From positions 23,250,001-23,314,000 of the forward strand of contig OZ024759.1 in the NCBI GenBank assembly GCA_964016885.1: a DNA stretch of 64,000 bases, written 5' to 3'. This DNA is from Eledone cirrhosa. Lineage: Eukaryota. Shown here piece by piece: positions 27,001-52,667 of the stretch (the first letter of the stretch is position 1; each line of letters opens with the position of its first letter). The translations under genes and the position numbers were made by a program. A model generated the notes under the pieces. That model was not told the origin of the DNA. It saw only the letters and a list, made by a program, of their open reading frames with translations, and searched no databases.

Positions 27001-28895
27001 ACCCTCTACCGATACTGCCAATCCACCTCAAAATAATAAGTCCTCAGCATGTCAGCTGGAACACACAATAGAGTATAGATTCTTACCAGTTACATTACTC
27101 CATGTAGAACTGTTTATGTTAGCATTGCAGATTAGAGATGTGTTTTCCAATAAGAAACCATCACCATAACATACCTCTTTGATAATACAAATGTCAGTCT
27201 GTAAATAGATAAATACACATATATTCCTTAACCCTTTAGCATTTACATTATTCTATATTTACTATTGTATTTTCATGCTAAACACTATTTTCACATAATA
27301 TTGAATCTATGAGATTTTGATGTTATCTATTTTGAGAACAATACCTTAACGTCACTATGAGCAGCCAGTTATTGCTGGTGTGAACAGAAAGAGGTAAGAG
27401 AATTCTGGCCGGATATGGCCAGTTTAAATGCTGAAGGGTTAATCAGCCTGGTGCTAATCTCCCTTGCAGAGAGCGGGTGTCTCTGAATCAGTTACACATG
27501 TGTCAGGTGATTCAGAGCAGCCATGTACCATTGGGAGTTGCATCCATCAACAGCTTACCAGTGTGGCTCTCCACCAGAGCAGACTGCTGAACTGAGTAAG
27601 TGTCTGGATCTCTGCCCACCTAAAAATATGAATCTCACAGCTCCTAATCCCATCACCATGAGCTGGTTACAATGCCGAGAGGACATCACATAACTGCAGC
27701 TGTCTAATATGGAAGAAGCAGTTTAGTCCACTCTGTAAAGTGGTAGTGCTGGTGCAATGAGAAAAGTACCCACTCCACCTTGTAATGGCAGTAGTGCTGG
27801 TGATACGATAAAAAAACACTCCATACACAGTGTAAAGGTGTTATTGCTGGTGTCACAATATAAAGCACCCAGTCCACTCTGTAAGGTGGTATTGCTGGTG
27901 CTACAAAAGATGTACCCATTCACCCTGTAAAATAGTATTGCTGGGGTCTCAATAAAAATCCCACAGTTCACCCTGTATGGGTGTGTTGTGTTCTTGAGTA
28001 AGATACTTTATTTCACATTGTTCAGCTTGTAAAATGAGTTGTGCCTATAATTCAAAGGGCCAGCTTTGTCATATACTCACACTGAATCTCCATGATAACT
28101 TGTGGGGCTAGTGAACCAGAAATGCAAAGGCAGTATTGCCAAAACCATATGTTAAGTTGCAATCTTAACAATGATTTAATAAATTTAGTAAATCCCTCAA
28201 AAGTCTTCATAATTAATTGAAATGGATTGTATTTAACTAAAAATACAATCATGAAAGAATTACTTATTGGGCAAGTGTTTCCTTCACATGAGCCCTTAAG
28301 GAACATTAATCACAGCAAAAAAAGCAAAAAGCAAAAAGGGGGTCTTACTCTTTGAGAGCAATTTTCACCATCGCACTTGAAACAGAGTGGGTTATAACGA
28401 ATGAAATACAGGCATAATTCGGATTTTCTTATTCTGTCATTGCTTATGGAGATCTTGTATATTCCTGAATTTTCTATTGGGCAAATGACCTGGTCACTGG
28501 TGATGTAGATAGCATCACTTGTATATTCAAATAAGGTCTCGTTGGGGAGCTACAATAGAATAAACAGCAAATAGGTTTGTTATTAGGGAATTATATAGAA
28601 TACAGTAAAAAGGTAAGATAAAAGCCATTAAGTTATGGAGTTGTAGCGATTACCAAATCTGGTAGAGTCCATCCCTCTTCAGGTCAATACACAGCCAATC
28701 TCTTCCAGAAAGAAAGAGACATGGCACTTTATTTTATTAAATTATTTTGATATAATAAACTTCCAACAAATTACTGTCTTATAAAAAGACGTGTGTGTGT
28801 GTACATGGATATTATTACACACACACACATATATACATACATATGTATTTATACATATATATATATATATATAATATATATATAATATATATATA

Positions 28896-28958
<63 letters not shown>

Positions 28959-29166
28959 GGTGAAAAGGCTCCCAGTCTACACTGTAAATGTGGTTGATGT
29001 TAAGAAGGGCATCCAGCTGTAAAAAAAAACCTGCCAGAGGCGTTTCCATGAGTGCGAGACATGGTCTCCTGATCATTCCCGCATCAAAGGGAACAAAACC
29101 GTCTAACCCATGCTAGTGTGGAAGATGGACGTTAAACGGTGATGATAATGATGATATATATATATG

Positions 29167-29213
<47 letters not shown>

Positions 29214-32200
29214 GAAGTAATTCCGTCGGAAAAGTCCAGGAAAAAAGAGTGCTCTATGTAAGCAACAGAGCTTAATTATTATTATGTAATAAACAACATA
29301 AGGCAATTATTCCATTTACCAGTGGTTTCTTAAAAGCAAAAGGTTTTGCTTTCAATCCTCAGAACGAAAAAATCCTGGTTCCTGGATTTTTTCGTTCTGA
29401 GGATTGAAAGCAAAACCTTTTGCTTTTAAGAAACCACTGGTAAATGGAATAATTGCCTTATGTTGTTTATTACATAATAATATATATATATATATGCAAA
29501 AGTTCTATTTAAAATTGTTGGGATACAACAAGTAAATATTTTATAACTGATATAAAGCACTCGACAAGTTTTTGGAGTAGATATACGATATTAAATAAAT
29601 GGAAACTATATTTATAAAACCATATTTATTTCATTATACATATTTCAGGGATACCAAATTAAAATATGGTATGCCTTCATCAGACAAAATACAATATATA
29701 AACAGTTTTATAAATAATTTTGACGTACCCTATTAGAAGTGACCATTACTATCCAGACAGCTTCCAAAAGTAATGGTCGCTTCTAATAGGGTACGTCAAA
29801 ATTATTTATAAAACTGTTTATATATTGTATTTTGTCTGATGAAGGCATACCATATTTTAATTTGGTACCCCTGAAATATGTATAATGAAATAAATATGGT
29901 TTTATAAATATAGTTTCCATTTATTTAATATCGTATATATATATATATATATTCTAAGCACTTCAAAAAGCCAATTATTCGTCTTCATACATTATTATAG
30001 AATTAATAAATACAAACAAACAAAACAAATCAACACAATAATATTTAAGAAAAAGTAATGACAACAAAGTTTACCTTTGTATATATGTAATGACAAGACA
30101 GCATGGAATTTTCTACAAAATTTTCACCCCAAACAACCACTTCACTGCAATTTTTAATCCGCTCATCACATAGTGTCTCGTCCAAAGATTCTATAACTGG
30201 GGCTGTTTTCAACTTAACGGAACAATCAAGACCAATGTATCCATCTTCACATTGGCACTCTCCTACATTATTCAAATAATAAAATAAAAAATTACAATAT
30301 AACTTAACTATTTTGTTACAATATACGAGAGTTGACTAAAAAAGTTCATAGGCTGATTATGAAGGAGTGATGCTAGGGCTGTGAAATTTTGCATGCATTA
30401 ATTTCAACTCTTCTCATTGATAACTACATTGTTTCTTTCTTGGGACTATGTTGAAAAATAAACCTCATTTGGTCATTCCATGAGAGTACCTTTGTCAGCT
30501 TATGAACTTTTCAGCTGATTCTTGTATCCTTGAATGAAACAGTTCTAGTCCTGTAGAAGCCATTTCTATATTAAATATACACACACATATATATATATGT
30601 CAAGAAATCCCAGTAGAAGGAAGACGCAGAAGAGGTAGACCACGTAAAACATAGGCGGAGGTGGTGAGAGCAGACCTCAGATTGCTGAAACTCACCAAGG
30701 AGATGACGAAGGACCATGACAAGTGGAGAGATGCTGTGCTGAATAGGACCCGTCCAACCCTTGCAAGCAGGGAAAAGCGGACGTAAAATGATGATGATGA
30801 TGATATATATATGAATAAAATTAACCAGGATTAAATTACATTAAATTATTTTAATTATTTTAATGGCAACATTGAATTATTGAACTATTTATTATATTGT
30901 GTTAAGAGGTGCCTACTGACTGTAGGTTTAAGTTTGTATGTAAGGGAAGGCAGGTTTTCTGTAATGTAAATGATAAAGGGTTAATAATGTTCTATACAAA
31001 TGAACATGTGTGGCTTAGTGGTTAGAGAAGTGGATGAGCTATGTGTTAAGTCCTTGAGCAAGACTCTCTATTTCACATTGCTCTTTCTGTCAGGAATTGC
31101 AACCAGTAGATAATATTAGCAATTTGAAAGACCAAAGGAAACATTGTTTGACGAGTCCCAACCCACTTGGTAAACAAATGTAAATGCGGTATAGGATAAA
31201 TGCAAATGCAGTCTAGGATCTTGAAGGCTTTAACCCAGCATGGTCACAGTCTAATGAATGAAACCAGTAATAGAATGAAAGAATCCATTTGTTGAAGTAA
31301 TACAACTTACCTTTTACACATTCGCCAAGGTTGTTACAATCATTTGGACATATGTCCTCCAAGATTTTGTTTGGACTGTCAGTGTTTGTGTTGTTGTTCC
31401 ACAAATCAACGTTAGCTTTTATTTCCATAATACAAGATTCTTGAAGATTTTGTATTGCTTCTCTGGTCCAAGAATTATCTTCAGTTATCTAATTCCCCAA
31501 GAAATAAAAGAAAATATTAATTTATTATTTAAGAATGTATTGGGAAAGCCGGTACAATGAGCATAGGATATATCAAAGGTTTTCAAAGTGGGCAGAACCA
31601 CCCCTTGCAGGGTGTTGAGAAGGTCCAGGGGGCGCTGCGGTCTAAGGGGGTGGTAGGGTGGTGTGGTAGAGATTATATAATAGTATATTAAATATCAGAT
31701 GATACATATTATATATAAATATATGAAAATAAAAAAATATATAATCTCTATTTATACATAATATATATTATATTATTTATCATATATAAATTAATGGTTT
31801 TATTTATTATATATTATTTACAATTTGCATGTTGGCAGGTCTGTCTGTAAATAGAGTTGGAGGGCGCTGAGGGTATTATGTGGCCATGAGGAGGGGGCGG
31901 TGGCCCCAAAAGTTTGAGAGCCTCTGGGATATATATGGTGGTGGTAGTAGTAAAGTAAAATACGAATGGCAAAACAAAACAATAGTTTTTTACCCTATAT
32001 CTCATAATATTTCAAGTTTATAACCTCTTTATCAAATGCAAAATGAAGAAAAAATTGAAGTGTCATGATCCTATGAGATATTCTTTGTTGTGTAACTGAC
32101 CATTGGTGAAAATGGTACATGATGAGTCATAACAGCTAGCTTACACATGTAGCTCGGGTCTGTTGTTAATGCATAGTTTATGCCTGTTGATACAAAGAAG

Positions 32201-35200
32201 CTCCTTGATCTGCAAATTGCCAATGTTCCTCTTGATAGTGTCTATGGTGGTTTCTCTATTGTTCATCTGTCTTATTCTAGTGTTATAACTAACTTTTTTT
32301 GTAATTATTATTTATCTGGTGTTTGGAGCATAACTTAACAATGGTTCTTACACTAAATAACGATGGAAAGTTTTTAGATAAATATAAACATTTTTGTTAA
32401 GATATTTCCAATGTCTATGATTTTTTTATTTAGAAAATAATCCAAAACGTGGAGGGATGTTATCATCATCACCGTTTAATGTCTATCTTCCACGCTAGCA
32501 TGGGTTTAGATGGGAATTGTCCTACTAGAGGCAAGATTGGTTGGGTGACCATGTCTCGCTCGTATAGGACTGTCTGGCAGGTTTTCTACGGCTGGATGCC
32601 CTTTCTAACACCAACCACATTTACAGTGTGGACTGGGAGGTTTTTACCGTGTTACCTACACGACCACATTACAGCGTGGACTGTCTGTTTTTTTTTGTCA
32701 TGACACCTACACGACCTCATTTATTTTGGACTGGATGTTGTAGTAATATAAATTCCCCTTATTAAGCTGGTGTTTGCTCTTACATAAAATTATGATGCAA
32801 GGTTTTTAGATAAATATAAACACTTTAGTTCTAATGAAAGACGCTGTCTATGATTTTTAAGTTTGAAAATAATCAGGAATTTAGAGGGATTTAATAATAT
32901 AACTAACTTTAAAAACAACATTTTTTAATAAGTGTTTGGAACATCATCGTTTAACCTTCCTTTTTCAATGTTAGCATGGGTTAGACGAGTTATCCCATTT
33001 GAGGCAACTTGGGTCATGTGTCTTGCTCACACAGAACTGTTTCTGGCTAGGTTTCTATGGCTGGATACCCTTTCTAATGCCAACCACATTTACAGTGTGT
33101 GCTGGGTACTTTTTGTCGTGATACCACCACGACTACTTTATAGTGTGGGCTGGGTGTTTTTTGTCATGACTGCTTAACGACTACTTCACAGTGTGTGCTG
33201 GGTGCTTTTTGTCGTGACACCTACTCGACCATTTTTCATAAAATATATATCGATGGAAGATTTTAAGATAAATATAAACAGCTTTCTATTATAAAACCAG
33301 AAAGCAGTTGGTTTGGTATAAAAAAAGGTTACAACACATGTTGGGATATTTATGGTGCCTATACCATCAGGACATCTCAAAAGATCTGAAAAATCTTTAC
33401 CTTAATATCCTCCACACAGGAGTCCAAAGAGATGGAAAAGTCAACGTTGGGAAGAATTTGAAGACATGCTCTGGTAGAATTACCCATTTCAATCTTTGAT
33501 TTGCATGTAGCAATTGCTTCTTCTTCTGTGATGTTAAATGATGGTGTCGGCCAGGTGTAGTCCTGAAACAGTTACAGGTAACAATTTTGTAGGTGAGAAG
33601 TGGGACAGGTAATTATAGCTTTAATATTATTTCAGTACAACAAAATAACATATGTAAATTTACAAATATGCTTAGATGTATGTATATGTATGTATGTATG
33701 TATGTATATATATATATACATATGAGTTTCAGAAGATCTTCTTACGGGTGAAAGCAGCGATTCTTGGCTTAAACTCGAATCTGTTATTTTAATAATTACT
33801 AGCAGAATGACCTGGCGTTGTTTGGGATTCTAAACATAAATTGGCATGTTTATCCCTCCTTTCTGAAACAGTACAGAGAAGTACAGAATACCTCAGCCTG
33901 GTGAATATATATATATATATATATATATGTGTGTATATAGATATATATTTATATAATGCAGGAAGAGTGGTAAGGAACCAGATAGACCATAATGCACCAG
34001 AGTACTCAATACTTAGGGTAGTAGAGTGGGTAATAGGAAAATGTTTGACCCCGACGGCAGAGCTCAAACCGTTTCAACTGCTATTTAGTCCAGAAATAGC
34101 CGTCGAAACGGCTTGAGCTCTGCCGTCGGAGTCAAACATTTTCCTAAATATATATATATATTTAAAAGAATCAAAGTCAATGTTGCAGCATATGTACAAA
34201 CTTTATTTGCATATTTCAATTGTAATATGCAAATAAAATTTGTACATATGTTGCAACACTCATGTCAACACTTAAATTTATTTACACTCTGAACACTATA
34301 GCTGTAACACTGGAATACAACCCAAACAAAATGGACCTTATAACAGCATTGGGTGCTTCGAATGGTGATGCAACACCTGTAACTACTGTTACACACATAA
34401 CTAATGTATATACATATATGCAGTTGTACCTTGCAGTACAAGTGCCCCATTCATCATCATCATCATCATTTTACGTCCACTTTTCCCTGCTTGCAAGGGT
34501 GGGATGGGAACTGATTCTGGCTTGATTTCTACAGCTGGATGCTCAAACCACTAAGCCATGTGCCTCCATTGTACAAGTAATTTGCTGTACGAACCGAGGC
34601 TCGTGTAAATTTTTGTCTTGTAGTACGAGTGGAAAACCACAGTAAGAGCGAGTTTCATACAAGCGACTGCTAGTTGGCACTCAGCTCGCAGACACTGTTC
34701 CAACAAGCGCAGTCCCCACTCACTCAGTTAATGTGTTTACCTCGTTGTCGCAGCATCCCTATTGTGTTTTTCCCAGTGTTTTTTTTTAGTTCTGTGTGTT
34801 TTTTGCTATTATTTTGGGTGGTGGATTAGCAGTATCACTAGAGGGTCGGACGCCATGCTTTCCAGCATGGAGTTACGGCCCTTGCCATTCTGAGTACAAA
34901 TCCCGCCGAGGTTAATTTTGCCTTTCATCCTTACGGGGTTGATAAAATAAAGCAGCAGTAATACACTGGGATAATTGCTGGCCTTGTGCCAAAAGTAGAC
35001 ATTATTATTATTATTATATTTATCTATATCATCATCATCATTTTATGTCTGCTTTTCCCTGCCTTCAAGGGTTGGATGGGTCCTATTCAGCACAGCATCT
35101 CTCCACCTGCCACAGTCCCTCGTCATCTCCTCGGTGAGCCCCAGCGATCAGAGGTCTACTCTCACCACCTCCGCCCATGTTTTTCGTGGTCTACCTCTAC

Positions 35201-35684
35201 TGCGTCTTCCCTCCACTGGGACGTCATGGCACTTCTTCACCCAGCAATCATCCTCCAAGTGCATCACAATGTCCATACCATCTCAGCCTTCTCTCCCGCA
35301 CACCACAACTTATCCCTCTTAAACCTAGTCTCTTTCTCATGCACACACAAATACACACACAGGCAAACAAACATAAGAAAATCTTTAACTGGTTTTTTTG
35401 TTTGTTTTGTTTTTTTTGTAAATTCCAATATATGATTGATTAAAAAATTTAAGCAAAAAATAATAAAATAAAAATGAATAGAAAGTTTCGAAGGAATTGA
35501 TAACTTACAGGGGTTACATATGTAACGTTATATTCAAATATTTCCTCTTGTTGCCGTGAGATACACTTCACAGGGGTTTGGGCTTGTTTTACTAACCTGG
35601 CTGTGATATCTTTGACTGAAAATGTAAAAAAATAAAAATAAAAAATAAATTATAAATAAATAAAAAAAAATTCTATGGCCACAG

Positions 35685-35754
<70 letters not shown>

Positions 35755-38700
35755 TAGGTAGTGAATTGTCTGAGTCATTAGAATATCAGGTAGTATTCAT
35801 GTCAGCTCTCTGCTCTCTGAGTTCAAGTCCTGCTGAGGTCAACTTTGCCTTTCATCCATTCATGGTAGATAAAAAAAGTACCAGTCAAATACTGGGGTTG
35901 ATTCTTCCTCTATATCTCTTTCTTACTTCCTTTTTCTCACTCTCTCTATCCTTTTCTGGAAGAAATCTACAGTATTCAGGCCAGGTAAGGAGATGGGCTC
36001 TGCTAAGTTAAAACAAAAAAATGCCCAATAAATGCTGTATGTCAAAATGGTGCCTGTCCCTCGGGAGTTACAGGTCCATACCATGCCTTATCATCATTAT
36101 CATCATTATAATAATTGTTTCTACTTTTGGCACAAGGCCAGCAATTTGAAGGTAAGAAGAAAGTCAGATCATCATCATCATCATCATTTTATGTCCCCTT
36201 GCAAGGGTGGAACGGGTCCTATTCAGCACAACATCTCTCCTCTTGTCACAGTCCTTCGTCATCTCTGCCGTGAGCTTCAGCGATCTGAGGTCTGCTCTCA
36301 CCACCTCTGCCCATGTCTTCCTCTACTGCGTCTTCCTTCCACTGGGATTTCTTGGCACTTCTTCACCCAGCGGTCATCCTCCATGCACATCACATGTCCA
36401 TACCATTGCAGTCTTCTCTCCCGCACACGACAATTTATCCCTCTTATACACAGTTTTTCTCTCAACTCATCTATGCTTGGTCATTCACGCACATTGACAT
36501 TGCACATCCAACGGAGCATGCTTGCTTCATTTCTCTCTCTGATATAAGAATAAATGTTGTACCTTTGCGAGATCTTTTCGCTTTTGGTTTCCTTCCACAA
36601 GACTGGTAGGCCATATCTGTGCTACACTGGGGTTCACCTAATGATGGGCAATCACAGTAAACTTCTTCATCTTCTCGTTCTCTCGGATCTTTTAGAGGAC
36701 AATAACCAGTGTACAGTGTGTCAGTTTCGTTAACTCTGAAACCAAAGATGATAAAATGTTATTCAGTAAACTGATGAAGTCAAACTGATAATATTTCATT
36801 TTTTTTTTATCCCACTACAAAAAATTATATATATATGATGGACTCTCCCGTCGATTCGACGGTAGCTGAGAGAAAACAATCAACAATTGACAATTATTTT
36901 GGAGTGCTTTCCTCCTCGTCGTCATCCTCATCATCATCACCATTTAACGTCTATCTTTCCATGCTTGCATGGGTTTAGAAAAAAAAAAACTGCCAGCCCT
37001 TCATAAATCATGGAGCAATCCTCGAGCTGAATTCATCTGATAGCTGGATTCCACCTACAGCTGACAATAACTCGTTGACATAATTGTAGAACATAAACGA
37101 GAGCAAAACCTTACCTCCAGCTCTTAGAAAATTCATCAGGCTTCTTAGAACGATCAAATAAAAATTTGCCATTAGACATAAGTAGATCATTGTCTTTATT
37201 TCCATCAAAGAAACCACAAAGACCTAGAAAGAGAGAAATATAAGACATGACAGCAGAGTGGTAACTAGAGTATGACAAGCATGGCACATGCCATGGGTGC
37301 CACATGCCATGGGTGCCACATGTCATGGGTGCCATGTGTCATGCGTGCCACATGCCATGGGTGCCACATGAAGGGGGCATCAGTTGGACTAGGAGACATT
37401 CTATTAAAGTCAAATAAGCCTCGTCGGAGAGTGAAAAAAGAAACTCCTTCAGATGTATGATCTGTCTCTGATTATCATGGCTGAGAACAATATGGTGGCT
37501 GGATCATTAAAAACCATTTATATAAATTATTAGGCCAATAGGTAAAAATACAGTGCTGGACAGGGGCACAATTTCACTATTTGCCATAGCTGCTATTTGC
37601 CCTAGTTATACCTCTGCATGACAGACAATATGAGCACGATGAATCATTGCATGGCTACAGGCATGGCTCGCTGTGTGGTTAAGAAGTTCAACCTCCCTTC
37701 ATAACACTTTAGGTAATAGTAGGCACCTTCTACCATTAATTCAGATAGATCAACACCTTGGCAACCTCTTTCATGGCATTTTAGATAACATTTGCACCCT
37801 TCTACCATTCATTCAGACCAAAATCTTGACAACCTCCACATGGCCCTTTATATAACATTAGGGGCCTCCTGTCATTAACTTGGATAGAGTTTTTTTACTG
37901 TAAATAATACACAACAGTCCCAATGATATTTTCAGCTAGGGGTCTCAAATGCATATTTTTTCTACTATAAATAATTGTTTCTATTTTAGGCACATGGCCA
38001 GCAATTACCCAGTACATAAACAAGAGCTCTGATGAAATTTTCGACCAGGGACTTCATGGAAACTTATTCCACTTCTACACACACAGGTGCGGATTAAGTG
38101 ATGCAGGCACTGACTGTGCTGTAGCAAGGCGTGCCACAATATTTAAAAGGTCACAAATTCTTCTTTTCTTTTTTTGTCTACTATAAATAATAAGGACTCT
38201 AATGATTTTTTCATTCAGGGCCTCAATTTTTGTTTTTAGTTGCTACCAAAAATAACACAAGAACCCCAATAAAAGTTTCAACTAGGAGCCTCAAATAATT
38301 TTTTTTCCTACTATAAATAATAAACAAGGGGTTCTGAAGAAATTTTCAGCCAAGGTTTCCATGGAAACTTATTCCACTTCTCCACAACACTGAATGCATA
38401 CATTCATAGACACAAACACACACACACATATATATACACACACACACAGACTCATATACATACACACAAACACATACACCCATATATGCATATACAAAAA
38501 TAAATGATGGTTTTATGCCAAAATTATAAAGTAACATAAGACATATTTGAAGTTACCTTCAGTCTTCTTAAAATCTGCAGGTGAGGCTTGGAACCAAACA
38601 TTAATGAATTGTGAAGTTCTTTTTTTGCCTTTTTCCACCATGACATATGCACCAGTTGGCAGAATAACCTGAAAATTACAAACTTTATTTTAGAATTTAT

Positions 38701-41700
38701 GCAATTTATATAGTTTTGAGACATGAACAGTGAAGGTAGAGGATATGTGAGAACTGGAGACAGTACTGGTGTTATGATTTGAACTCAGAATGGCAAGGGC
38801 CGTAACTCTATGCTGGAGAGCATGGTGTCCAACCCTCTAGTGATACTGGCAATCCACCGCCCAAAATAATAGCAAAAAACACACAAAACTAAAAAAAACA
38901 CTGAGAAAAACACAATAGGGATGCTGCCACAACGAGGTAAATACATGAACTGAGTGAGTGGAGACTGCGCTTGTTGGGAAAGTGTCTGCGAGCTCAGCAC
39001 CAACTAGCAGTCGCTTGTATAAAACTCGCTCTTACTGTGGCTAAACCTGTGACAACTAAACCTGGATCTAAACTGATGAACCATTATACCTGAAACAACT
39101 TTGATCATAGATCTACTAGTATTGGGTTGACCTAGGGCCAAACAGATGAACCATCATACCTGAAACAACTTTGATCATAGATCTACTAGTATTGGGTTGA
39201 CCTAGGGCCAAACAGATGAACCATCATTCCTGAAACAACTTTGATCATAGATCTACTAGTATTGGGTTGATCATGGTTTAAACAAACTGACTGTCATGGC
39301 TGAAACAACTATGATCATAGTTCTACCAGTAGGTGGTTGACCTAGGGTTAAACAGATGGACTGTTATAGCTGAAACAACTATGATCATAGATCTAGGGCT
39401 AAAGAGACCTATTGACTTAGCTGAAACAACTATGATCATAGATCTAGGGCTAAAGAGACCTATTGACTTAGCTGAAACAACTATGATCATAAACCTACCA
39501 GTAGATGGTTGACCTGGGGCTAAACAGTAACAAAATAAAATATTTGTTTAAATGACAAGAAATGACAGTAGATGGTTGTCCATGGACTAAACAGACTGAC
39601 TGTCATAGCTGAAACAACTATGATCGTAATTCTACCAGCAAATGGTTGACCAAGGGTTAAACAGATGGACTGTCATAGCTGAAACAACTATGATCATAGT
39701 TCTACCAGTAGATGGTCGACCTGGGGTTAAACAGTAACAAAATAAAATATTTTTTGAAATGACAAGAACAAAAAAAAAGGGGGAGGGGGGTCAGATCACC
39801 TGCTCAAAAAAACCAAAGCTAAAATGAAATATCTAAAAGTTGTTTTATATAACACTTACTTGATATTTCTTGCCTCCATAATGACTTAGAATCTTTGTTT
39901 TTGGTGTCAGATTTCCATTGAGATAAAGGAACACTTTCATTGGGTGCCGCTTCTTTGACTTTTTGGCACCACACTGATCTATCAAAATGACATCATCTCC
40001 TGAGAGAATTGCAACAGCGCAGTTACAAGATGCACGGCCATTGCAGTTGCGATAGAAGGTATGTACTGCGTATGGTAATGTTGTATGGCTGTACAAGACA
40101 AATTCACCTTCAAAGAAATTGTTATAATATTTTCCATCCAGTGTTGTAATATGGGGATCATTGATAGATTTACAGATCGCCTTCTTATCACTGTCCTTGA
40201 TATCTACTTGAACTTGCCCAATGTTTAACTCATTGAGTGTGTTATTACTAATCCAAATGGAAACCCAACGGCTTTGAAGTCTGTCTCGTAATCCATCAGT
40301 CGTTCCAAGGACTGGAATTTGTAAAATCGATCTCCAGTTCATGTTGGTGATTGAAAATCGGCATTGATTTTTATCGGAGTAATTCTGCTGTTGGACGTGA
40401 CCGAATACTACCTGAGGTATTATTTCATCATCACAATAGAAATCTTTTCTATGTTTTTCAAGTTTGGTGAGTACATGGAAACGGCAGTCATTACCAGAAC
40501 ACATCAACCGTGGTGGCAAATTTGATTTCAGTTTGATAAATCCTGGTTTATCACCTTCCACAACATTTATCTTGCTTGAAAGGATCTTAATCTCAGCAGC
40601 AATAGTATTACTGTGACGTTTCGGTCCTTGTAAGTTTTCACAATCAGAGATGAAGCAAGCTGAAACTGCACAATTGATTGTGTCATTATATTTCATCATA
40701 GTCAAATGACTTTCATTCAGTGATACTTGGTAGGTACGGTTGTCAAATTCTGGATTTACTGACAAAATTTCTTTCTTATTCAAGTACCAAAACACTGAAT
40801 ATTTCAGTTGATTATTATCTGGATGAGGTGGAAAAGAACACAGGAATTTAACTTGCTCAGTTTTATTATGAACATGCAGTCTGATTTCTGGTGGGTTTTT
40901 GAAAGTTGGTGGTTCTGTTTTAATCTTGGTTTCTTCAATAGTTTCAATAGTAGCGTTTGTAATTGTCCAGCCTTCAATAATAATATGAGCGAAGTCAGTC
41001 TTCAGAAAAGATGTCCCAATAAGGAGATTTCTAACAAGAGTACCTTTCACCTCACGGACTATAAATTCTGTTTGTCTAGCAACTATATTTTTATCAAACA
41101 TCAGTAGCAAGCCACTCTGTGGATTCCAGCTGAAGGATATTGATATGAACATTCCGACACGGAATTTGTCTGTTTTTAATGTCCACTGCTTGTCTGGGGT
41201 GCTTACTGTAAGGAAGAGGAAGCCTTTTGACACCCACATTGCACTTCCAGAATATTGTAATCTCTCACCTCCATTACTGAAAATTACCATGTAATCTTTT
41301 AGAGTGACTATCTTGAGGTTGAAGTTCACTGTAAACCCTCCAAAACACTCCCGTGCTTCTGCACTAAAGCAGTTGATTCCTTTACCCATGTCAATCATTT
41401 GGTTTATGCCACCAAGTAGCAGAGCTTGTCCACCAAAAGGACCAGATACAATTTTGATGTTTCCGCTAAAGGTCAGATTGAATTTTGGTGTGACAATGAC
41501 ATTTCTTATTATTCTCAGGAAGCCCAGTCGGATAACAATGGTGTTAGTAACTGCGGAGTAAAAGAAATAGTTATAAAATTTAATAGAAGTTATATTGTTT
41601 AATCTAAGACAAAAATGTTCTAATTTTTTTCTGTAAGATTATGTATGTCTAACGTTTGTCTTGGGCCCCGAGGCTCATCAGATTGGTGTTTATTTTGGTT

Positions 41701-44700
41701 TCTGTTGTGGGAAGTGACTGACAATACAAGAATCCCCACTGGACAAGATGCCATTCCATTGCAGGGTCAAAGTCTGTTGTGTGCCTGACAGTTCATCAGG
41801 CCAGTACTTATCTTAGTTTCCATGGCATGAAGGAACTGAAAGTACAAGACTCCTCCCTGATTGGTGGTTTTGTTTCATGGTATCAAAAGCCTTAAACATA
41901 ACAGAATCTCAAAATACAGAAAGCCTTATAACCCCTGAAATATTTAACCCCTTAACCCCTGATATTGAACTGCTTTATAAAAACTATAAGCATTAAATAA
42001 GTGTTATGGCTTAAAGAATTAAGAGTAGAACTAGAACACTTAACCCTTTCATTACCAAACCACTTGAAACCCATCCTCGTTTTATGGTACAAAACTATTT
42101 ATTTTAAAGTGTTTACATTTATCTAAAAACCTTCTATGGTAATTTCATACAAGTATCTTTGTTAACCCTTTAGCATTTAAACCAGGCCGTATCCAGCCAG
42201 AATTCTTTCACCCTTTTCTGTTTAAACTGGCCATAACCAGCTGCTCCTACTGATGTTAAGGAATTTTTCTCAAAATAAATAATATCAAAATCTCATAGAT
42301 ACGACATTATCTGAGATAATTATGTGAAATAAAGTTACTACCATGAAAAGATAATAATAAATTTAAAGTAATGTAAATGCTAAAGGATTAATTTATGTCC
42401 CAAATAATGACAAAGTTAAATTCAAAATAATTTTCAAAATTATTTCAAATTCACAAGCAATGTCTTTCCTTAAAAATATGGTAAGAAAAGGGCTAATACT
42501 TTGAAGATTTCTTACCATCTATCTTTTGCCACGTATCTTTAGACACTCCAACATTACAAACAAATGAAGCATTCCTTGGGTTCACAGCTGAGTCTTCATA
42601 ACATTCATTATTGATTTTGCAGATATCATTCTGAAACAGAGAACAATGAGTTTATAGATGTATGTATAAAATATTGTTATTTAGAATTATATATAAAGGC
42701 CTGAATGTTAACTGGGAAGATGTAGCTAAATATTATCTTCAATAAAATAACTTGTTATGGTATGAAACCAGCTGGTAGCCTGACATAATATGGTATAATA
42801 TCATAATATGTGTCCAAATAGCTCTTCAACAGATATAAAGTATACTGGGTTCATTTTTTCATTTCACCCGCACTACTAGTTTAAAGAATATGACGGGTAT
42901 GTTTTAACATTGTACCAGCAATACTACTTTATAGAGCGTACTGGGTGTATTTTATTTTGTATTTACTCTGTTCACATTATAATGATTGGAGGACTGTGAG
43001 ACTGTCAGGCATATTTTTTCTGAACACGTTATTAAAATAAGTTGGATTACTTTGAAGATATCATGAATGAATATTATGTAATTTATTTACTAAATTTCGT
43101 AGCTGTTGATTAAACATAAATATTCTTATATATAATGTATTTTAAGATTCACTTCTATAAAATTTTCAAATGTATTCCTTTCCGGTTAGCGTCCATTATA
43201 TCATAACACTTAGCCATACGCTATATCACATTGCTTATATAAACGTTCATATATTTGCATCATAACGGTTATATTTCCATCGCTAATTTTCTCCTGGTTC
43301 ATTTTCATAACATTTTGCTGTAATGCAGTTTATATATAATATCATCTTTTTTAAAATGTATCATGGATTACTTTACTGATTACAGAAGAGAGAGGGTAAC
43401 ACGGTCTCTCTTCAATTTCTGTGCATATTGTCAAGTACGATTTTATTTGACATATATCTACATGCATATATATTGGCATATAATATTGGTTCTACTTTTG
43501 GCACAAGGCCAGCAATTATCCCAGTGCATTACTGGTACTTTATTTTATCGACCCCCAGAAGGATGAAAGGCAAACTTAACCTCGGCGGGATTTGAACTCA
43601 GACCGTAGAGGGACATAACTCTATGCTGGAAAGCATGGCATCCGACCCTCTACCGATACTGCCAATCCACCATCCTATTTGTGTATAATATTAATATGCA
43701 CACTACACATGCTAGCAGAAAACCACCCGAAGTGTGGTTTTTCTGCTAGTATATATAATCTTCAGTTAAACATTGCTACTTACCCTTTCTGAACACTTTT
43801 CTTCTGTACAGATCTCACAAAGTGAATTAAAGGTTACTAACATAAATCTATTTGACCAGGTGTTATTGTTATTGCTCACAGAAACTTCAAATACTTTATC
43901 TAATTGCATTTCACATTCAACTTGTTCTTCAGACACATAATTAGCATCTATGAAATTATATTGTTCAGTTGATTCAAATCCACTTTGAGTTTTCTGTTAA
44001 AGGAAATAAAAATTCTAAGTTAATACTGGAATGAGAACAGAACAAAAAATGTCTATGTAATAAAAGACCAATAAGTTTCAAGACAAATAAAGCAAAACTT
44101 AGTAATGTTTTACCCAATATATTTCAACATGATATTTCAGGGTTGGAGTTTGTTTATGTTTTCTGCTTCTGTAATCAGTTGGAGTATTGGGCTTCTTCTG
44201 TGTGTGGATATAATTTTTATTTCTATCTTGTCTGTCCCATTTTGGCATGTTGGTGGAGGACTGATGAGTTTTTCCTACCCTAGAGTTCTCACCAGTGTTC
44301 ATTTATCCTTATTCCTATGCTATGGGCCATCACATCTATATAAGTTGCGTTCCTATTCCTAAACTGTCCCTCCGTACATCTTATGCTATATACTATCTCC
44401 CTAGTTTTGCAGTTAATCTGTGGGCTTAATTTGCACACTAGTGTGTGTGTGTGTGAAGGCATGTGGCTTTGTGGTAGGGTATTCAGCTTGCAATCGTAAG
44501 GTAATGAGTTCGATTCCAGGCAGTGCATTTGTCCTTGAGCAAGACACTTTACTTCATGTTGCTTCAGTCCTCTTAGCTGGTAAAAATGAGTTGTATCTGT
44601 AAATCAAAAGACCAACTTTGTCACATTCTGTGTCACACTGAATTTCCCTGAGTATTACATTAAGGGTATGTATATCTGTGAAATGCTCAGCCACTTGCAT

Positions 44701-47700
44701 GCTAATTTCAAGCAAGTTATTCTGTTGGTTGGATCAATTAGAACACTCATCATCGTAACCGATGGAGTGCTAGTATACATCATCATCATTTTATGTCCAC
44801 TTTTCCCTGCTTGCAAGGGTGGGACGGGAACTGATTCTGGCTTGATTTCTACAGCTGGATGCCGTTTCTAACACCAACCTTATTTACAGTGAGTGCTGGG
44901 TGCTTTTTTCCGTGGCGCCTACACGACCACTTTGCAGTGGACTGATAGGGACCCCAGTCCTATCATCTCATTTCTACAGCTGAGTAAACTGGAGCAATAT
45001 GAAATATATATATCATCATCATCACCGTTTTACGTCCGTTCTTCCATGCTAGCATGGGTATAACCTTCAACCGTCAAGGTTTTTCTATGGGTATGTCAAC
45101 ATTTATAAAACATAAATATATTGAATATTAACTCCAGTAATCTGTTGAGTGCTTTATATCAGTTATAAAACTTTTAAGCTTGTTGAATCCCAACAAATTA
45201 AATATAACTTCTGCATATATATATATATATATATATATCATCATCATCATCATCATCAAGGTTTAGCGTCCGTGTTCCACGCTTGCATGGGTTTGGATGG
45301 GGGTTTTCCCACTTGAGGCAAGAGTGGTTGTCTTGCTCGCATAGGACTGTCTGGCGGGTTTTCTACAGCTGGATGCCCTTCCTAACACCAACCACATTTA
45401 CAGTGTGGGGCTGGGAGGTTTTTACCGTGTAGGTAAATATATATACAGTTGTCTCCCGGGTAACGTTCCTAGAGCACTCACGAAGAGTGAAAAACCGGGA
45501 ACATTGGACGTGGTCCACAAAAATGACTATAGACATCAAAACTTAATGTAAAATATAGGCCAGCAAATACGGTATACTGTTATTAATAATTTAGCATTAA
45601 AAAGTTTGAAAAAATATATATTGCCACAAAAAAAGGCATTAAAAAATCATGGAAGATATTTACAATTCCGTGAATATGTGGTGGTTTGCGCAAACATTTA
45701 TTAGTTAGTTTCTAAGGAAAATTCCACGAATAATCGGGATCGTGAATGCCGGGACTGCAAATGTCAGGGGCACACTGTATATGTAATAGGAATTTAGAGC
45801 AATACAATATCATCATCATCATTTTATGTCCGCTTTTCACTGCTTGCAAGGGTTGGACGGGTCCTATTCACCACAACATCTCTCCACTTGTCACGGTCCT
45901 TCGTCATCTCCTCCGTGAGTTTCATTGATCTGAGGTCTGCTCTCACCACCTCTGCCCATGTTTTTCGTAGTCTACCTCTACTGCGTTTTCCTTCTACTGG
46001 GATTTCTTGGCACTTCTTTACCCAGTGGTCATCCTCCAATACTACATACAATAAACAACAACAGAAAATAACATATTGTAAAAAATAATAGATATTTACC
46101 TTCATCTCTCGAATGCGGCACATCAAGGTATCGGAGTCTATGAAGCCTGTACCAGTAATTACCAGAAACAACTTCATCTTCTTTCTCTTCAGCTTCAGGG
46201 TATCAATGAGGGTGGTCCTCTGGAGAACAGTGGGGGGTTCATTCTTCTTGAGTGAACAATCGGCTCCAGTAAAGTCATCGGAACATTGACAAACCCCTAG
46301 AATTGATACATAAATAGATTATACTTTACATTAATGAGATAATTTGAACGACTGTGGTTAACTGGTTAGGGATAGGGTTAACAATCATAAGGTCATGTTT
46401 CAATTACTGGACTAGTTTAGTTATCCTTCATGTCATTGCTCTACACTATATTTAAACATCCTGTTCCACATGAAACCACATGTGTGTGTATTTGTACATG
46501 TGTGTGTGTGTAATGTCTGTGAAGGCACGTGGCTAAAACCAGTAAAAGAAGGTGGTGCCCCAGCATGGCCACAGTCTAACGAGTGAAACCAGTAAAAGAA
46601 TGTAGTGCCCCAGCATGGCCACAGTCTGATGACTGAAACCAGTAAAAGAATGTAGTGCCCCAGCATGGCCACAGTCTGACGACTGAAACCAGTAAAAGAA
46701 TGTAGTGCCCCAGCATGGCCACAGTCTGACGACTGAAACCAGTAAAAGAATGTAGTGCCCCAGCATGGCCACAGTCTGACAACTGAAACCAGTAAAAGAA
46801 TGTGGTGCCCCAGCATGGCCACAGTCTAATGACTGAAACCAGTAAAAGAATGTAGTGCCCCAGCATGGCCACAGTCTGACGACTGAAACCAGTAAAAGAA
46901 TGTAGTGCCCCAGCATGGCCACAGTCTGACGACTGAAACCAGTAAAAGACTAAAAGTCAAAACAACAAACCATTCAAACATTTTCCTCTTTTGTTACAAT
47001 CATTGATACAGAGTCCTTTGGTGAAATTATCTGGTAGTTTCACATCTCCTTCTTCTGTCTTCTCCCAGAGTTTAGGGTCAGTTGTTAGAGCTATCATACA
47101 CACTTCTTTGAGACTCTTCAATGCTGTCTGTCGCCAAACTAAATTACCCGTTAGCTAGAAGAATAACAAGAAAGATAAAGGAAAAAAGAAAATGATTTAT
47201 TCATGCTGTTGTTGATATTGCAGATAGGAAGAGCATTGGGCTATAGAAAACTGACTAAACAAAGAGTAGAGATGACATTTTAGTTGTGTCAATGGATACA
47301 ACTACTTCTCTAATGTTGGTGATCATCATCATCATCATCATCATTTCATTTTTCGTCCGCTTTTTCCCTGCTTGCAAGGGTGGGACGGGAACTGATTCTG
47401 GCTTGATTTCTACAGCTGGATGCCCTTCCTAACACCAACCTCATTTACAGTGAGTGCTGGGTGCTTTTTTGCCGTGGCACCTACAGGACCACTTTGCAAT
47501 GGAATGATAGGGACCCCAGTCCCTATCATCTCATTTCTACAGCTGAGTAAACTGGAGCAATGTGAAATAAAGTGTCTTGCTCAAGGAAACAGACACTTTA
47601 TTTCACATTGCTCCAGTTTGATCTACATGATAATTGCTCCCTGACTACTTTCTGTAGAGTAGTTGGTGAGCTGGAGCAGATATACAGACTAAGATCTGGT

Positions 47701-50700
47701 GTTGGACGTACAAAAGTCACTTGCAAGATGTGGATATTTAAAGGATGGGGACATTGTGTGTGACTGCGGCATTGAACCACAGACTATATAGCACCTCCTG
47801 ATATGCCCCCCTCCTGGAACATCCCTGCAAAGCATTGAACTTGGTAGAGTTTAATGAGAAAGGACAGCAATGTATTCAGCTCTGGTGGAACCACATCTAG
47901 TCAAGCTTTGTAACTGACACTCTTGTGGACACGACAAGAAGAAGAACTGTACATTAGATAATATAGTCCTAGATACACTATGTCTGATAGCAACTAATAC
48001 TAACTACTGTACTGATCATCATCATCATCATCATTTTACGTCCACTTTTCCCTGCTTGCAAGGGTGGGACAGGTCCTATTCAGCACAACATCTTTCCACT
48101 TGTCACGGTCCTTTGTCATCTCCACCGTGAGCTTCAGCGATCTGAGGTCTGCTCATACCACCTCCACCCATGTTTTTCGTGGTCTTCCTCTACTGCATCT
48201 TCCTTCAACTGGCATTTCTTGGCACTTCTTTACCTAGTGGTCATCCTCCATGCACATCACATGTCCATACCATCACAGTCTTATCTCCCACACACTACAA
48301 CTTATCCCTCTTAAAGACAGTTTCTCTCTCAACACATTCATGCCCGGTTGTTCATGTTCATTGACATTGCACATCCAGCCATCGCATATCTTCTGCAGTT
48401 GCTGCCCATGTCTCACTATTGTACATGTAAAAGTCACTCTTGCAAAATGTGGATATTTAAAGGATGGGGACATTGTGTGTGACTGCGGCATCGAACCACA
48501 GACTATGCAGCACCTCCTGATATGACCTCTCCTGGAATACCCCTACAAATCATTGAATTTGGTAGAGTTTAATGAGAAAGGACAGCAATGTATTCAGCTC
48601 TGGTGGAACCACATCTAGTCAAGGTTTGTAACTGACATGCTTGTAGACACAACAAGAAGAGGTTGGTGATAGGAAGGATATTGAGCTATAGAAAACTTGC
48701 TAAACAAAGAGCAAGGCGGACTGTCCTGTTGTATCAAAAGACATGACAACCTCCTTAGTGTTGGCAATCTACACAATAAATGCACCCAGACTACTTTCTG
48801 TAAAGCATCCAGATATAGAAAACTTGCCAAACAAAGAATAAAGAGGACTCTCGAGTTTTTTTAAAGATTTGACTACATCTTTAGTGTTGGTGATCTACAT
48901 GATAAATGCACCCACTACTTTCTGTAAAGTAGATGGTGACAGGAAAGGTATCCTTCTATAGAAAACTTGCCAAACAACGAATAGAGAGAACTGTTCAGTT
49001 GTGTCAAAGACCTGACTAGCTCTCTTTAGATCAGGTGTAACAATACAATAACAGCTCAATCTGTAGAGTATGAGAACATATATAAAGAAGATGTGTCCCT
49101 AATCCATCTAAAAAATCAGTGGCTATGATTAAGAAATGATTTGGTCTGAAACGACCTCTCCATCACTTGTTAGAAAGGAAATCATGATTTTATATAAGAA
49201 TCATATATTAAGTTACTATCATATTAATGAAATAATAATTTTAGTAAATCTCTCTAAATTCGTCATTAACTCTTTTGATACAAAACTAGCTCTGGTTCTG
49301 TTTAACAAAATCACCCATTTTAAAGGCTTCCTATTTAAATCAAAATCTTACAAAAATTTATATATGAACCCTATGTTAAAGTACTATTTTAGTAATGGTA
49401 AAATTAATAATTTTATTAAAGATCTCAAAATTCTTCATTAATTAATTGAAATACTGTGTATTTCATTAGAAATGTGGTCAAGAAAAAATTAAGTAAAAAA
49501 GCTACATACATGTAAATCTACTGAACAAGATTGTATATAAGACTGAATGTTGATAGATGGCAATTTCTGGCAGGCTTTAGCAGCTTCACTTTCTACAAGG
49601 AATTCTCTACAGTAAGTATTGGCCTGAACTTTGCTGATATTGCTTGCAAGATCCTAGAAGAAAGCAAAACAAAACAAAAAACAAAACAATAAAAATTAAA
49701 GCTAAAAAATATGAGAAAATATTGATTATGTATGGCTGAACTTAATCATACTTATTATTCAGAACCCTCCATCCCCACAAAAAGTATTCTGAAGAAATTA
49801 TCTAAAATCAAAGAATTGCCTGAAATCAGTCCTGGTTCTATAATACAAAGCTGTTTGTTTTAAAGGGATGAGAAATTCTCAGGAGAGCTGAATAGCAGAA
49901 GGTCTTCAAAAAAGATGCTTCCCCTCCCATCAAGCAAGTGCTTAACCCTTTAGTTACCAACCTGGTCAAAACAAGGTCTGGTTCTATTAAATAAAACCAC
50001 CCAATTTTAAAGGTTTCCAATTTAGATTAAAATCTTCCAACATAAATTTATATAAGCACCTTATATTAAGTTATTATTTTAGCAATGAAATAATTAAAAA
50101 TTTTAGGAAATCCCACAAAAATTCTTCATTAATTAATTCAAATAGACTGTATTTCATTAGAAATGCAATCATGAAAGGATTAAGGGCCGAAACATTTGCT
50201 TGAAAGGGGGTTTCCTCTCTGAAGACTTTCTGCTGACCAGCTCTGCTGAGCGTTTCTTACCGCTTTAAAACAAATAGCTTTGTATTGTACGTAAACCAAA
50301 TTGAAGATAGCAAATTTGGCTTTTACGCCTACCTCCCTTCTTCTGATTATTGAATGCTGAAGCTGGCACCAGCTTTTGCAATTCTTGCACTTAATTCACC
50401 CTCCTGCCCCAAGATACCCTTACCTATGGTCATGAATCTTGGGTAATGACTGAATGAATACAATCGTGAATACAAGCAGCCAAAATGGTTCCGAGTGGTT
50501 TTTGAAGTAATGTTACTCGATAAAGTGCATAGCTCGGAGATCAGTGAGTCACTCCAGGTAGAGCCACTACTTCTCTGTATTGAGAGATCACAGCTCCGAT
50601 ACTATGGACATGTGGTTAGAATGTCTCAGGAAAGAATCGCAAGACAGATTTTACAGGCAAAACCAACTGGCATGGATAACATCCTTGAGCTTGGCTGGTC

Positions 50701-52374
50701 TTGCTTGGGCATCCAGCTGGATCAGTTGGAGATGGTTGCTTCTGACAGGGCCAACTGGAAGGAGTGCTTGAGGACTCTGCCCCCACGACTCTCTCAGGAA
50801 TAAGTGGGCAGAGAAGAAAAAGTTTTGTATCATAGAACCAGGGCTGGTATCAGATGGGTTTTTATCAAAAAGGTTTAACAATTATAATTCCGTTTTTTAT
50901 TTTTACATTTATTTTCTTAAAAAAAAAAAAGTATCTAAAAAAATCAGCTATCATAATTGTTTCTACTTTAGGCACAAGGCCAGCAATTACCCAGTACATT
51001 ACTGGTACTTTATTTTATCGACCCCGTAAGGATGAAAGGCAAAGTTAACCTCGGCGGCATTTGAACTCAGACTGTAAAGGTACGTAACTATGCTAGAAAG
51101 CATGGCATCCAACCCTCTACCGATACTGCCAATTCACCACCCTCAGCTATCATAATATTATATAATAAACATCATAATATTATGTAATAAACATCATAAT
51201 ATTATGTAATAAGCATCATAATAATATTATATAATAAACATCATAATATTATATAATAAACATCATACTATTATGTAATAAACATCATAATATTATATAA
51301 TAAACATCATAATATTATGTAATAAACATCACAATATTATGTAATAAACATCATAATATTATGTAATAAACTTTGTTATAAGTAAGTTTGTTTTGAAACA
51401 GCAAGTAGTTTGAAATTAGTAGAAATAGAAGTTTCGCCATATTTTTTACTAAAGAAATTTTAGCCTGATAGTGGGATTTAGAACCCTCTAAAGAATGGAA
51501 AAGGATGTGTATTGACGTACATTGATGTCAATATTCATCCTTTTCCATTTTTTTTTAGGGTATTAAAACCCCACTATCAGGCTAACATTTCTTTAGTCAA
51601 AAATACGGCGAATGTTTCTATTTCTACTAAACTTTGTTTTGTTATGTTCCAAACATAACACTGACCAATGACATCCATTGCAATAGCCACCAAACCTCAC
51701 AGGGATCCTTTCTCAGACAGTCTGCTGACATTCTGATTTTATGGAGGAGCTGAGCTGTACGGTGTCTGAGGACACCTGATGTAAATCAAATAATAAGTGT
51801 GTTTGAAAACTTACATCAGCAACATATGTGTCATTGTATTCGAAAATTATTTGTGGTTGCACTGTGTCACATTTCTTTGATTCCTTGGCATGTTTTATCA
51901 AAACTGGAGTTATGTCTTTTACACCTGAAATTTTACAAAATAAAAAAAAAGTTTCAATATATAATAATTTCTAGTTTAGACACAAGGCCAGTAATTTGGG
52001 GGGGAAGCGAAGTCGATTATATCAACCCCAGTACGTGACTGGTACTTTATTTTATCGAGCCCCGTAAGGATGAAAGGCAAAGTTAACCTCGGCGGCATTT
52101 GAACTCAGAACGTAAAGGTGCATAACTCTCTGCCGCGAAGCCTGTTGTCCGACACTCTACCGATACTGCCAATCTATATATAATGGCAGTACTCCAGCAT
52201 CATAATGATGATCATCATGATGATGATGATGATGATCATGATCATGATCATGATGATGACAATGTTTATAGACTGATCATGATGGTGATGATGATGATGA
52301 TGATGGTGATGGTGATAATGATGATCACACTGATAATGATGATAATGATGTTGACGATAATAATAATGATGATG

Positions 52375-52406
<32 letters not shown>

Positions 52407-52455
52407 CACACTGATAATGATGATAATGATGTTGACGATAATAATAATGATGATG

Positions 52456-52487
<32 letters not shown>

Positions 52488-52533
52488 CACACTGATAATG
52501 ATGATAATGATGTTGACGATAATAATGATGATG

Positions 52534-52565
<32 letters not shown>

Positions 52566-52602: not shown

Positions 52603-52667
<65 letters not shown>

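What the first reader, a model, noticed from the sequence alone, without database searches (positions are those of the whole stretch)
39860..41550. Concerted loss of ~7-8 adjacent introns in only the middle copy of an intragenic tandem module
Seen: module 2 encodes LamG through the first half of VWD in one 1691-nt exon. Module 3 encodes the same span in 8 exons totalling 1730 nt, plus the mucin exon. Module 1, where visible, has introns at the same 4 positions and phases as module 3, including an identical 64-nt exon. The giant exon starts and ends at intron positions shared between modules, and all downstream introns of module 2 are retained. Established: precise loss of runs of adjacent introns is the signature of recombination with reverse-transcribed mRNA. 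Inference: a partial cDNA converted this segment, and the sister modules preserve the ancestral state within the same gene.
Basis: partly seen in the sequence, partly recalled or inferred. Interest (0 to 1): 0.75.

Follow-up and report, generated by a model that had tools for sequence, protein, structure and literature searches.

The report
Six introns erased from one repeat
In a predicted giant octopus-type membrane-protein gene built of 14 repeated units, the thirteenth unit cleanly lacks six neighbouring introns that its sister units keep, most likely because a DNA copy of the spliced message was recombined back over the gene, which makes it an unusually well-controlled example of a known process.

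Summary
The core observation is real; three details need correcting. The 1691-nt exon (41550-39860, minus strand, AG/GT ends) is confirmed by a short-read contig spanning it with intron on both sides, and by a spliced contig that enters at 41550 and runs unbroken across all lost sites. The gene has 14 modules, not 3 (predicted 12,937-codon open frame plus a transmembrane exon). The exon lies in module 13. It lacks six shared introns, not 7-8; the extra two are private to module 14. The six are present in 7/7, 13/13, 13/13, 13/13, 12/13 and 13/13 other modules. Modules 8-10 and 11-13 are a duplicated block; module 10 is the sister in both halves and keeps all six. Exon-shaped ORFs orthologous to module 13 from unnamed animals still end at two of the sites, so this is loss, after module 13 arose. 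Six consecutive among seven losses in 217 slots: P about 1e-8 if independent. Best reading: one cDNA-templated conversion of 0.85-1.7 kb, with at least 28 downstream introns kept. The mechanism is inferred and long known; no earlier scan note covers this locus.

The parts
39860..41550 (-). Fused exon of module M13 (LamG-like, Ig_VWDE, linker, first half of VWD), 1691 nt, equal to seven ancestral exons of 636+236+93+378+77+64+207 nt
   Evidence: short-read contig 39750-42112 and spliced contig 41550-39906, both with 0 differences
40914..40915 (-). Lost intron site S1 (phase 1, end of LamG)
   Evidence: intron in 7/7 other LamG modules (M14 one column off); orthologous ORFs P0018/P0154-156 end here in a phase-1 donor read-through
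40678..40679 (-). Lost intron site S2 (phase 0)
   Evidence: intron in 13/13 other modules
40585..40586 (-). Lost intron site S3 (phase 0)
   Evidence: intron in 13/13 other modules; S2-S3 spacing 93 nt as in 12 of 13
40207..40208 (-). Lost intron site S4 (phase 0)
   Evidence: intron in 13/13 other modules; orthologous ORFs P0063/P0170-172 end here in a phase-0 donor read-through
40130..40131 (-). Lost intron site S5 (phase 2)
   Evidence: intron in 12/13 other modules; also missing in M07
40066..40067 (-). Lost intron site S6 (phase 0)
   Evidence: intron in 13/13 other modules; S5-S6 spacing 64 nt as in 12 of 12
41551..42515 (-). Retained module-boundary intron M12/M13 (phase 1, 965 nt); no remnant of split exons
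   Evidence: spliced out in the X4 contig
38669..39859 (-). Retained intron S7 (phase 0, 1191 nt, holds a 70-bp tandem array); no remnant of split exons
   Evidence: site shared by 14/14 modules
27087..38668 (-). Rest of M13: exons 38668-38557, 37223-37115, 36735-36563, 35615-35509, 33562-33401, 31488-31311, 30262-30075, 28549-28349, 27198-27087; all introns kept
   Evidence: spliced profile alignment; not seen in reads
42516..63014 (-). Module M12, part inside the window: 13 exons from 63014-62565 to 42630-42516, including 60169-60093 (77 nt), 59513-59450 (64 nt) and 57576-57358
   Evidence: the last three exons are joined to the giant exon in the X4 contig (the 115-nt one inferred from the contig's coordinates)
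1385..25562 (-). Module M14, part inside the window; tract-equivalent exons 25562-25348, 23464-23038, 17298-17057, 16125-16039, 10256-9867, 9531-9443, 6717-6654, 4600-4385
   Evidence: not seen in reads
19790..20811 (-). Candidate Thr/Pro-rich mucin-like exon of M14 (phase-1 acceptor at 20811; donor weak and uncertain, about 19789-19798)
   Evidence: open frame and acceptor read; splicing untested
13602..14855 (-). LINE-type reverse transcriptase fragment (418-aa open frame) in an M14 intron; shows that RT elements populate this genome, not that this copy did it
   Evidence: RVT_1 E 1e-19

Best explanation
Module 13 of a predicted 14-module VWDE-like membrane-protein gene lacks six consecutive introns that its sister modules keep, most likely because a partial cDNA of the gene's own spliced mRNA recombined with the gene in the germ line. 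Shown: the fused exon, the six positions, their presence in the sister modules, and no indel at the five junctions in well-aligned sequence. Inferred: a LINE-encoded reverse transcriptase copied part of the message; the exchange began in the ~636-nt LamG exon and ended in the ~207-nt VWD exon, replacing roughly 8-11 kb of gene by 0.85-1.7 kb of intron-free sequence and sparing the introns on either side; the allele then fixed, probably neutrally, with the protein unchanged. It happened after the block duplication M08-M10 / M11-M13 and after the split from at least one unnamed relative whose module 13 still has introns at S1 and S4.
For: Exon is genomic and unspliced internally. Six sites present in 7/7, 13/13, 13/13, 13/13, 12/13, 13/13 other modules, all modelled introns GT-AG. 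Implied sub-exons of 93, 77 and 64 nt equal the near-invariant sizes in sisters. 7 losses in 217 shared slots, 6 consecutive: P = 1.1e-8 under independent uniform loss (post hoc). Both ends lie on ancestral splice sites; the flanking introns are only 965 and 1191 nt with no exon remnants (best tblastn E 0.12). M10 is M13's closest module over the tract (45% identity) and downstream (41%); trees pair them at 84/65 and 99/99, alongside M08+M11 and M09+M12. Orthologous ORFs group with M13 (98.2/100 for LamG, 96.4/96 for the linker) and end in donor-like read-through exactly at S1 and S4. Lost sites show no extra junction microhomology in sister modules (mean 2.37, n=71, against 2.23, n=124; P=0.75). 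The tract lies in the last sixth of the modelled coding sequence (starts at 32,725 of 38,812 nt). RT frames lie in the gene's introns; retrotransposition-competent LINEs are reported in two Octopus species (PMC9115989, abstract).
Against: No cDNA intermediate can be seen, and no retrocopy was found: one DNA match and 33 protein matches in the own genome, all at this locus (lower bounds). At least 28 introns 3' of the tract are kept and 4.4 kb of module sequence plus tail and UTR lie downstream, which simple poly(A)-primed conversion does not predict. PMC3652778 (passages) reports that intron-losing mRNAs are mostly on free ribosomes, whereas this one is predicted to be membrane-bound. Germ-line expression is unknown. 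M07 lacks S5 alone, and other animals' ORFs lack S5, S6 or S0+S1, so single losses also occur in this family. Only two of the six sites could be checked in an orthologue, from protein ends alone, without DNA. S1 lies in a variable linker where precision is least sure. The tract tree's M10+M13 support is weak (84/65), and that pair was not resolved in the midpoint-rooted 8-row tree.
Confidence: 0.8

Rival explanations
1. Same RNA-templated route but in more than one step: two or three overlapping conversions, or a longer 3'-anchored conversion later trimmed by meiotic recombination with an intron-bearing allele (model in PMC2395259).
For: It explains why at least 28 downstream introns survive. 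PMC2395259 (passages) estimates internal-loss alleles arising this way about twice as often as 3' ones in Cryptococcus. The window of time is long: four-fold sites are near saturation between modules (27/76 for M13 and M10).
Against: A full 3' conversion would need a cDNA of over 6 kb replacing some 60 kb of gene; no other loss is seen among the downstream shared sites. One short double crossover is simpler.
Confidence: 0.1
2. Six independent precise genomic deletions by end-joining or microhomology-mediated repair, without RNA.
For: A single precise loss exists in M07. Microhomology-linked loss is reported for nematodes and flies (PMC3698931, listing and start of abstract).
Against: P about 1e-8 for six in a row. 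No microhomology excess at these sites; M10's six introns have 0-2 nt. Introns are long (median 1347 nt).
Confidence: 0.04
3. Ectopic conversion: the cDNA came from another module's part of the message, making M13 a chimera.
For: In the short VWD part of the tract M13 is slightly closer to M12 (70%) and M09 (69%) than to M10 (65%); the tract tree's M10+M13 support is weak.
Against: LamG (40% against 21-28%), Ig/linker (35% against 16-29%) and the downstream half all point to M10. Intron-bearing orthologues group with M13 itself in both LamG and linker trees, so the tract sequence is native to M13. Modules are too diverged for recombination.
Confidence: 0.02
4. A processed retro-fragment inserted into an intron and was recruited as an exon while the original seven exons were deleted.
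For: It would also give an intron-free block; LINE RT frames are common in the locus.
Against: It needs new splice sites at exactly the two ancestral positions and phases; no exon remnants in the short flanking introns; no poly(A) tail at the exon end.
Confidence: 0.02
5. Assembly artefact, or intron gain in all other modules.
For: X1 may be the sample that was assembled, so it is not an independent animal (caveat).
Against: A 2431-nt short-read contig matches 39750-42112 with 0 differences, and a second sample's spliced contig matches too. Gain would need the same six positions in 12-13 modules and in other animals.
Confidence: 0.02

Closest known systems
Reverse-transcriptase (mRNA-mediated) intron loss; adjacent losses in rat and mouse (PMC3652778, passages) and Cryptococcus (PMC2395259, passages)
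   Same: Precise removal, several adjacent introns at once, flanking introns kept, an unusually long internal exon as the result.
   Different: Here the ancestral state is read from 13 paralogous modules inside the same gene, with a known sister module; six long introns; a predicted mRNA of 39 kb or more for a membrane protein; at least 28 introns kept on the 3' side.
Internal intron loss models: double crossover, self-primed RT, cDNA repair of a break, meiotic trimming (as discussed in PMC2395259, passages)
   Same: An internal tract with the 3' introns retained.
   Different: Which sub-model applies cannot be told from one genome.
Molluscan hemocyanin genes (PMC7931591, passages)
   Same: A multi-unit mollusc gene whose units are joined by phase-1 linker introns.
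   Different: Hemocyanin internal introns differ between units and lineages; here 15 internal positions are shared across modules and one module lost a run of six.
[quoted passage not shown]
   Same: Ig_VWDE, VWD and EGF domains in that order; oyster hits are named VWDE-like by NCBI.
   Different: 14 tandem modules, eight with an N-terminal LamG-like domain, a higher-order three-module duplication and a C-terminal transmembrane exon; orthology with vertebrate VWDE not tested.

Membership tests
RT/cDNA-mediated intron loss | Introns ancestrally present at these sites (loss, not gain) | tested here: met
   12-13 of 13 sister modules, sister M10, and M13-orthologous ORFs ending at S1 and S4
RT/cDNA-mediated intron loss | Precise removal, no coding bases gained or lost | tested here: met
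   no gap at S2-S6 in the 14-module alignment; 93, 77 and 64 nt spacings kept; S1 is in a variable linker and less sure
RT/cDNA-mediated intron loss | Adjacent introns lost together beyond chance | tested here: met
   6 consecutive of 7 losses in 217 slots, P 1.1e-8
RT/cDNA-mediated intron loss | Tract ends inside exons, flanking introns untouched | tested here: met
   boundary intron and S7 at ancestral position and phase; no remnants
RT/cDNA-mediated intron loss | 3' bias of loss | tested here: inconclusive
   module 13 of 14, but at least 28 introns further 3' are kept
RT/cDNA-mediated intron loss | Single simultaneous event | not testable with these tools
   no genomic DNA of other cephalopods was retrieved
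RT/cDNA-mediated intron loss | Germ-line expression and processed pseudogenes of the gene | tested here: inconclusive
   no retrocopy found; tissue of the spliced contig not on record
Microhomology/NHEJ intron deletion | Raised microhomology at the lost junctions | tested here: not met
   2.37 against 2.23 nt, P 0.75, measured on sister-module introns as proxies
Retro-inserted exon | New splice sites, poly(A) tail, remnants of the original exons | tested here: not met
   ancestral splice positions, no remnants
VWDE family | Ig_VWDE, VWD and EGF domain content | tested here: met
   Pfam on the exon and on relatives
VWDE family | Orthology with vertebrate VWDE | not tested
   no tree with deuterostome VWDE was built

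The most novel reading that the evidence does not exclude
The tract is the footprint of internally primed reverse transcription or RNA-templated repair acting several kilobases inside a 39-kb-plus membrane-protein message in the octopod germ line, and this 14-module gene, with 217 homologous intron slots and a known internal phylogeny, works as a natural reporter array: scored across cephalopod and other mollusc genomes, where ORFs already hint at recurrent losses at S5, S6 and S0+S1, it would give tract lengths, positional bias and rates of RNA-templated intron loss within one gene.
Probability: 0.3. Interest if true: 0.6.

Novelty: new member of a known kind. Interest (0 to 1): 0.42.

Why it matters
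[quoted passage not shown] This is a single case with strong internal controls: 13 sister modules, a known sister, fixed exon sizes and both tract ends bounded. It suggests that very long, membrane-bound messages can be templates, and that the converted tract can lie far from the 3' end. It has no predicted effect on the protein. As a by-product it outlines an apparently unassembled gene of about 13,000 codons that public annotations hold only in pieces.

Tried and rejected
Dating the loss with other octopods failed. The near-length protein search found nothing among 5293 candidates. Named cephalopod proteins cover only M04-M06 (Octopus bimaculoides P0001) and M07-M11 (Argonauta P0005, P0153), not M13. 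A metagenome scan gave 400 pattern matches and no relative. Run X5 (organism B) gave two 151-nt pieces at depth 2 with no substitutions in the exon, which looks like carry-over and was not used; X6 (RAD-seq) barely covers the exon. No RNA holder is listed by record; X4 is read as RNA only because one contig skips three GT-AG introns. The read check of M07's single loss was inconclusive: the 138-nt exon was not covered by a listed contig. The gene's 5' end was not found: 56 of 126 candidate upstream frames were scanned with Pfam and gave only RT, zinc-finger and weak hits. The fourth tree did not finish and was not repeated. An 18-nt exon, a 0-nt exon and several 5-16-nt end pieces proposed by my aligner were dropped as artefacts (exons under 20 nt removed). 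The 64- and 40-nt M14 exons outside the window are uncertain. The count of 7-8 was rejected (private M14 features). Earlier scan notes: nothing near the locus; 8 of 41 genome-wide notes shown, none on this gene.

Full report
1. The observation. On the minus strand, 41550-39860 is 1691 nt with one stop-free frame of 563 codons, a pyrimidine-rich CAG acceptor and a GTAAGT donor. Pfam finds Ig_VWDE and the first half of VWD; the LamG label comes from relatives. Two read sets confirm it. Run X1 has a 2431-nt contig matching 39750-42112 with no difference, so the exon and both intron ends are genomic; X1 may be the assembled sample. Run X4, another sample of the same organism, has a 2310-nt contig that lies on 46297-46101, 43993-43784 and 41550-39906 with no difference and leaves a 115-nt gap equal to exon 42630-42516. 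It is therefore spliced, enters the giant exon at 41550 and crosses all lost sites unbroken. X4 is not on record as RNA, and the last 46 nt and the 3' splice were not seen.

2. The gene. A search of the own genome gave 33 matches, all on one contig next to the window. I fetched 400 kb around the window and wrote a spliced profile aligner. It yields 14 tandem modules, M01-M14: Ig-like, linker, VWD, cysteine-rich part, EGF and tail; M07-M14 also start with a LamG-like domain. All 200 modelled internal introns are GT-AG, and all 13 module joints are phase 1. Joined, the modules give 12,937 codons without a stop, and a phase-compatible transmembrane exon follows M14. Only the M12-M13 joint was seen in a spliced contig, so one transcript is predicted, not shown; the 5' end was not found. 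The closest named proteins are octopod: Octopus bimaculoides at 58-84% to M04-M06 and Argonauta hians at 49-57% to M07-M11.

3. What is missing. In the 14-module alignment M13 lacks six consecutive sites, at window junctions 40915/4 (phase 1), 40679/8, 40586/5, 40208/7 (phase 0), 40131/0 (phase 2) and 40067/6 (phase 0). They are occupied in 7/7, 13/13, 13/13, 13/13, 12/13 and 13/13 other modules. M13 aligns without a gap at S2-S6, and its implied pieces are 636, 236, 93, 378, 77, 64 and 207 nt, against 639, 227, 93, 420, 77, 64 and 207 in M10. The same span takes 8.0-11.3 kb in M07-M12 and 21 kb in M14. Five of the seven other LamG modules have one LamG exon, and M11's extra intron is at another place. 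Among 94 short database proteins, 28 end at S1, and 25 of these (19 after removing cluster mates that I added) run unbroken through both private positions. M07 lacks S5 alone (assembly only; one search was inconclusive).

4. Direction and date. Trees pair M08+M11, M09+M12 and M10+M13 in both halves (M10+M13: 84/65 in the tract, 99/99 downstream), so a three-module block was duplicated. Argonauta has both M08 and M11, so the duplication predates that split. M10 keeps all six introns. Two clusters of unnamed Logan ORFs are M13 orthologues: P0018/P0154-156 (LamG, 53%, support 98.2/100) and P0063/P0170-172 (linker, 52%, 96.4/96). They stop matching exactly at S1 and S4 and continue as G-E/K-S and V-S-I, the translations expected of G|GTRAG and |GTAAG donors (my reading of the standard code; no DNA seen). 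So module 13 existed with at least two of these introns, and the loss came later on this lineage. Whether Octopus or Argonauta share it is unknown; their M13 was not retrieved. Against universality: 15 ORFs from other animals run S5 to S7 without S6 while 17 run S6 to S7, P0136 lacks S5 and P0024 lacks S0 and S1. The family changes introns elsewhere too, but that does not alter the polarity within this gene.

5. Mechanism. Seven losses fall on 217 shared slots, six in a row; P is 1.1e-8 under independent uniform loss (post hoc). Lost sites show no extra microhomology. The flanking introns are 965 and 1191 nt and hold no exon remnant. No second copy of the exon was found in the genome. Precise, adjacent loss bounded within exons is what recombination with a cDNA predicts (PMC3652778, passages). 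The converted tract is at least 848 and at most 1691 nt. It lies near the 3' end of the gene, yet at least 28 introns further 3' survive and 4,396 nt of module sequence plus tail and UTR follow. PMC2395259 (passages) lists ways to get such internal tracts: double crossover, self-priming, cDNA repair of a break, or meiotic trimming of a longer loss. I favour one short conversion from the module's own message (0.8). The RT source is inferred: RT frames lie in the gene's introns, and competent LINEs are reported in Octopus (PMC9115989, abstract and outline). Against: no retrocopy, unknown germ-line expression, and the reported bias of intron-losing mRNAs toward free ribosomes.

6. Known and new. 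The process is textbook. Hemocyanin is the nearest mollusc precedent for a modular gene with phase-1 linker introns, but there the internal introns differ between units (PMC7931591, passages). VWDE is described as little studied (PMC7390686, passages). Eight literature searches were run; two searches gave no paper, and the listings of the others (8-20 titles each) showed no report of this gene or of a multi-intron loss confined to one intragenic module. The library omits most subscription journals, and no supplements were read.

7. Verdict. New member of a known kind, interest 0.42. Its value is as a controlled case and as a possible 217-slot test bed across mollusc genomes.

Noticed in passing
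G000:C20 about 23,229,000-23,618,000 (window plus L001-L031, L038-L040): The whole gene: 14 VWD modules, 12,937 codons without a stop, candidate mucin exon and a transmembrane exon; public proteins hold only pieces. The 5' end was not found.
   Followed up: partly
Modules M08-M13 (window coordinates 174,253 down to 27,087 by extension; L011 to window): Higher-order repeat: M08-M10 duplicated as M11-M13 before the split from Argonauta.
   Followed up: yes
L013:6362-6499 (module M07): 138-nt exon fusing the 77- and 64-nt exons: a single loss of site S5, with one codon missing away from the junction; read check inconclusive.
   Followed up: partly
window 25347-23465 (M14) and L004:7333-8242 (M11): Two private phase-0 introns inside LamG at different positions; likely gains or module-specific old introns.
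   Followed up: partly
Proteins P0024, P0136 and 15 S5-S7 ORFs: Exon-shaped ORFs from unnamed animals lack S0+S1, S5 or S6, hinting at recurrent intron loss in this family.
   Followed up: partly
window 19790-20811: Thr/Pro-rich 18-nt-unit repeat in frame after M14's LamG; good acceptor, weak donor. The P0027 cluster from another animal also has LamG followed by a Thr/Ser-rich repeat.
   Followed up: partly
window 13602-14855 and L033:8160-9800: Long open LINE reverse-transcriptase frames (418 and 547 aa) in introns or upstream DNA.
   Followed up: partly
window 41287/41268 and 40819: Strong-scoring cryptic donors and acceptor inside the giant exon; the one spliced contig does not use them.
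   Followed up: no
L037 (G000:C20 about 23,210,000-23,218,000): A block of about 2.3 kb appears in three or more near-identical tandem copies downstream of the gene (repeated ORF translations).
   Followed up: no
P0005 and P0153 (Argonauta hians, adjacent gene models): Two neighbouring models 90% identical over about 3000 aa, both ending in M11; possible tandem duplicate or haplotype.
   Followed up: no
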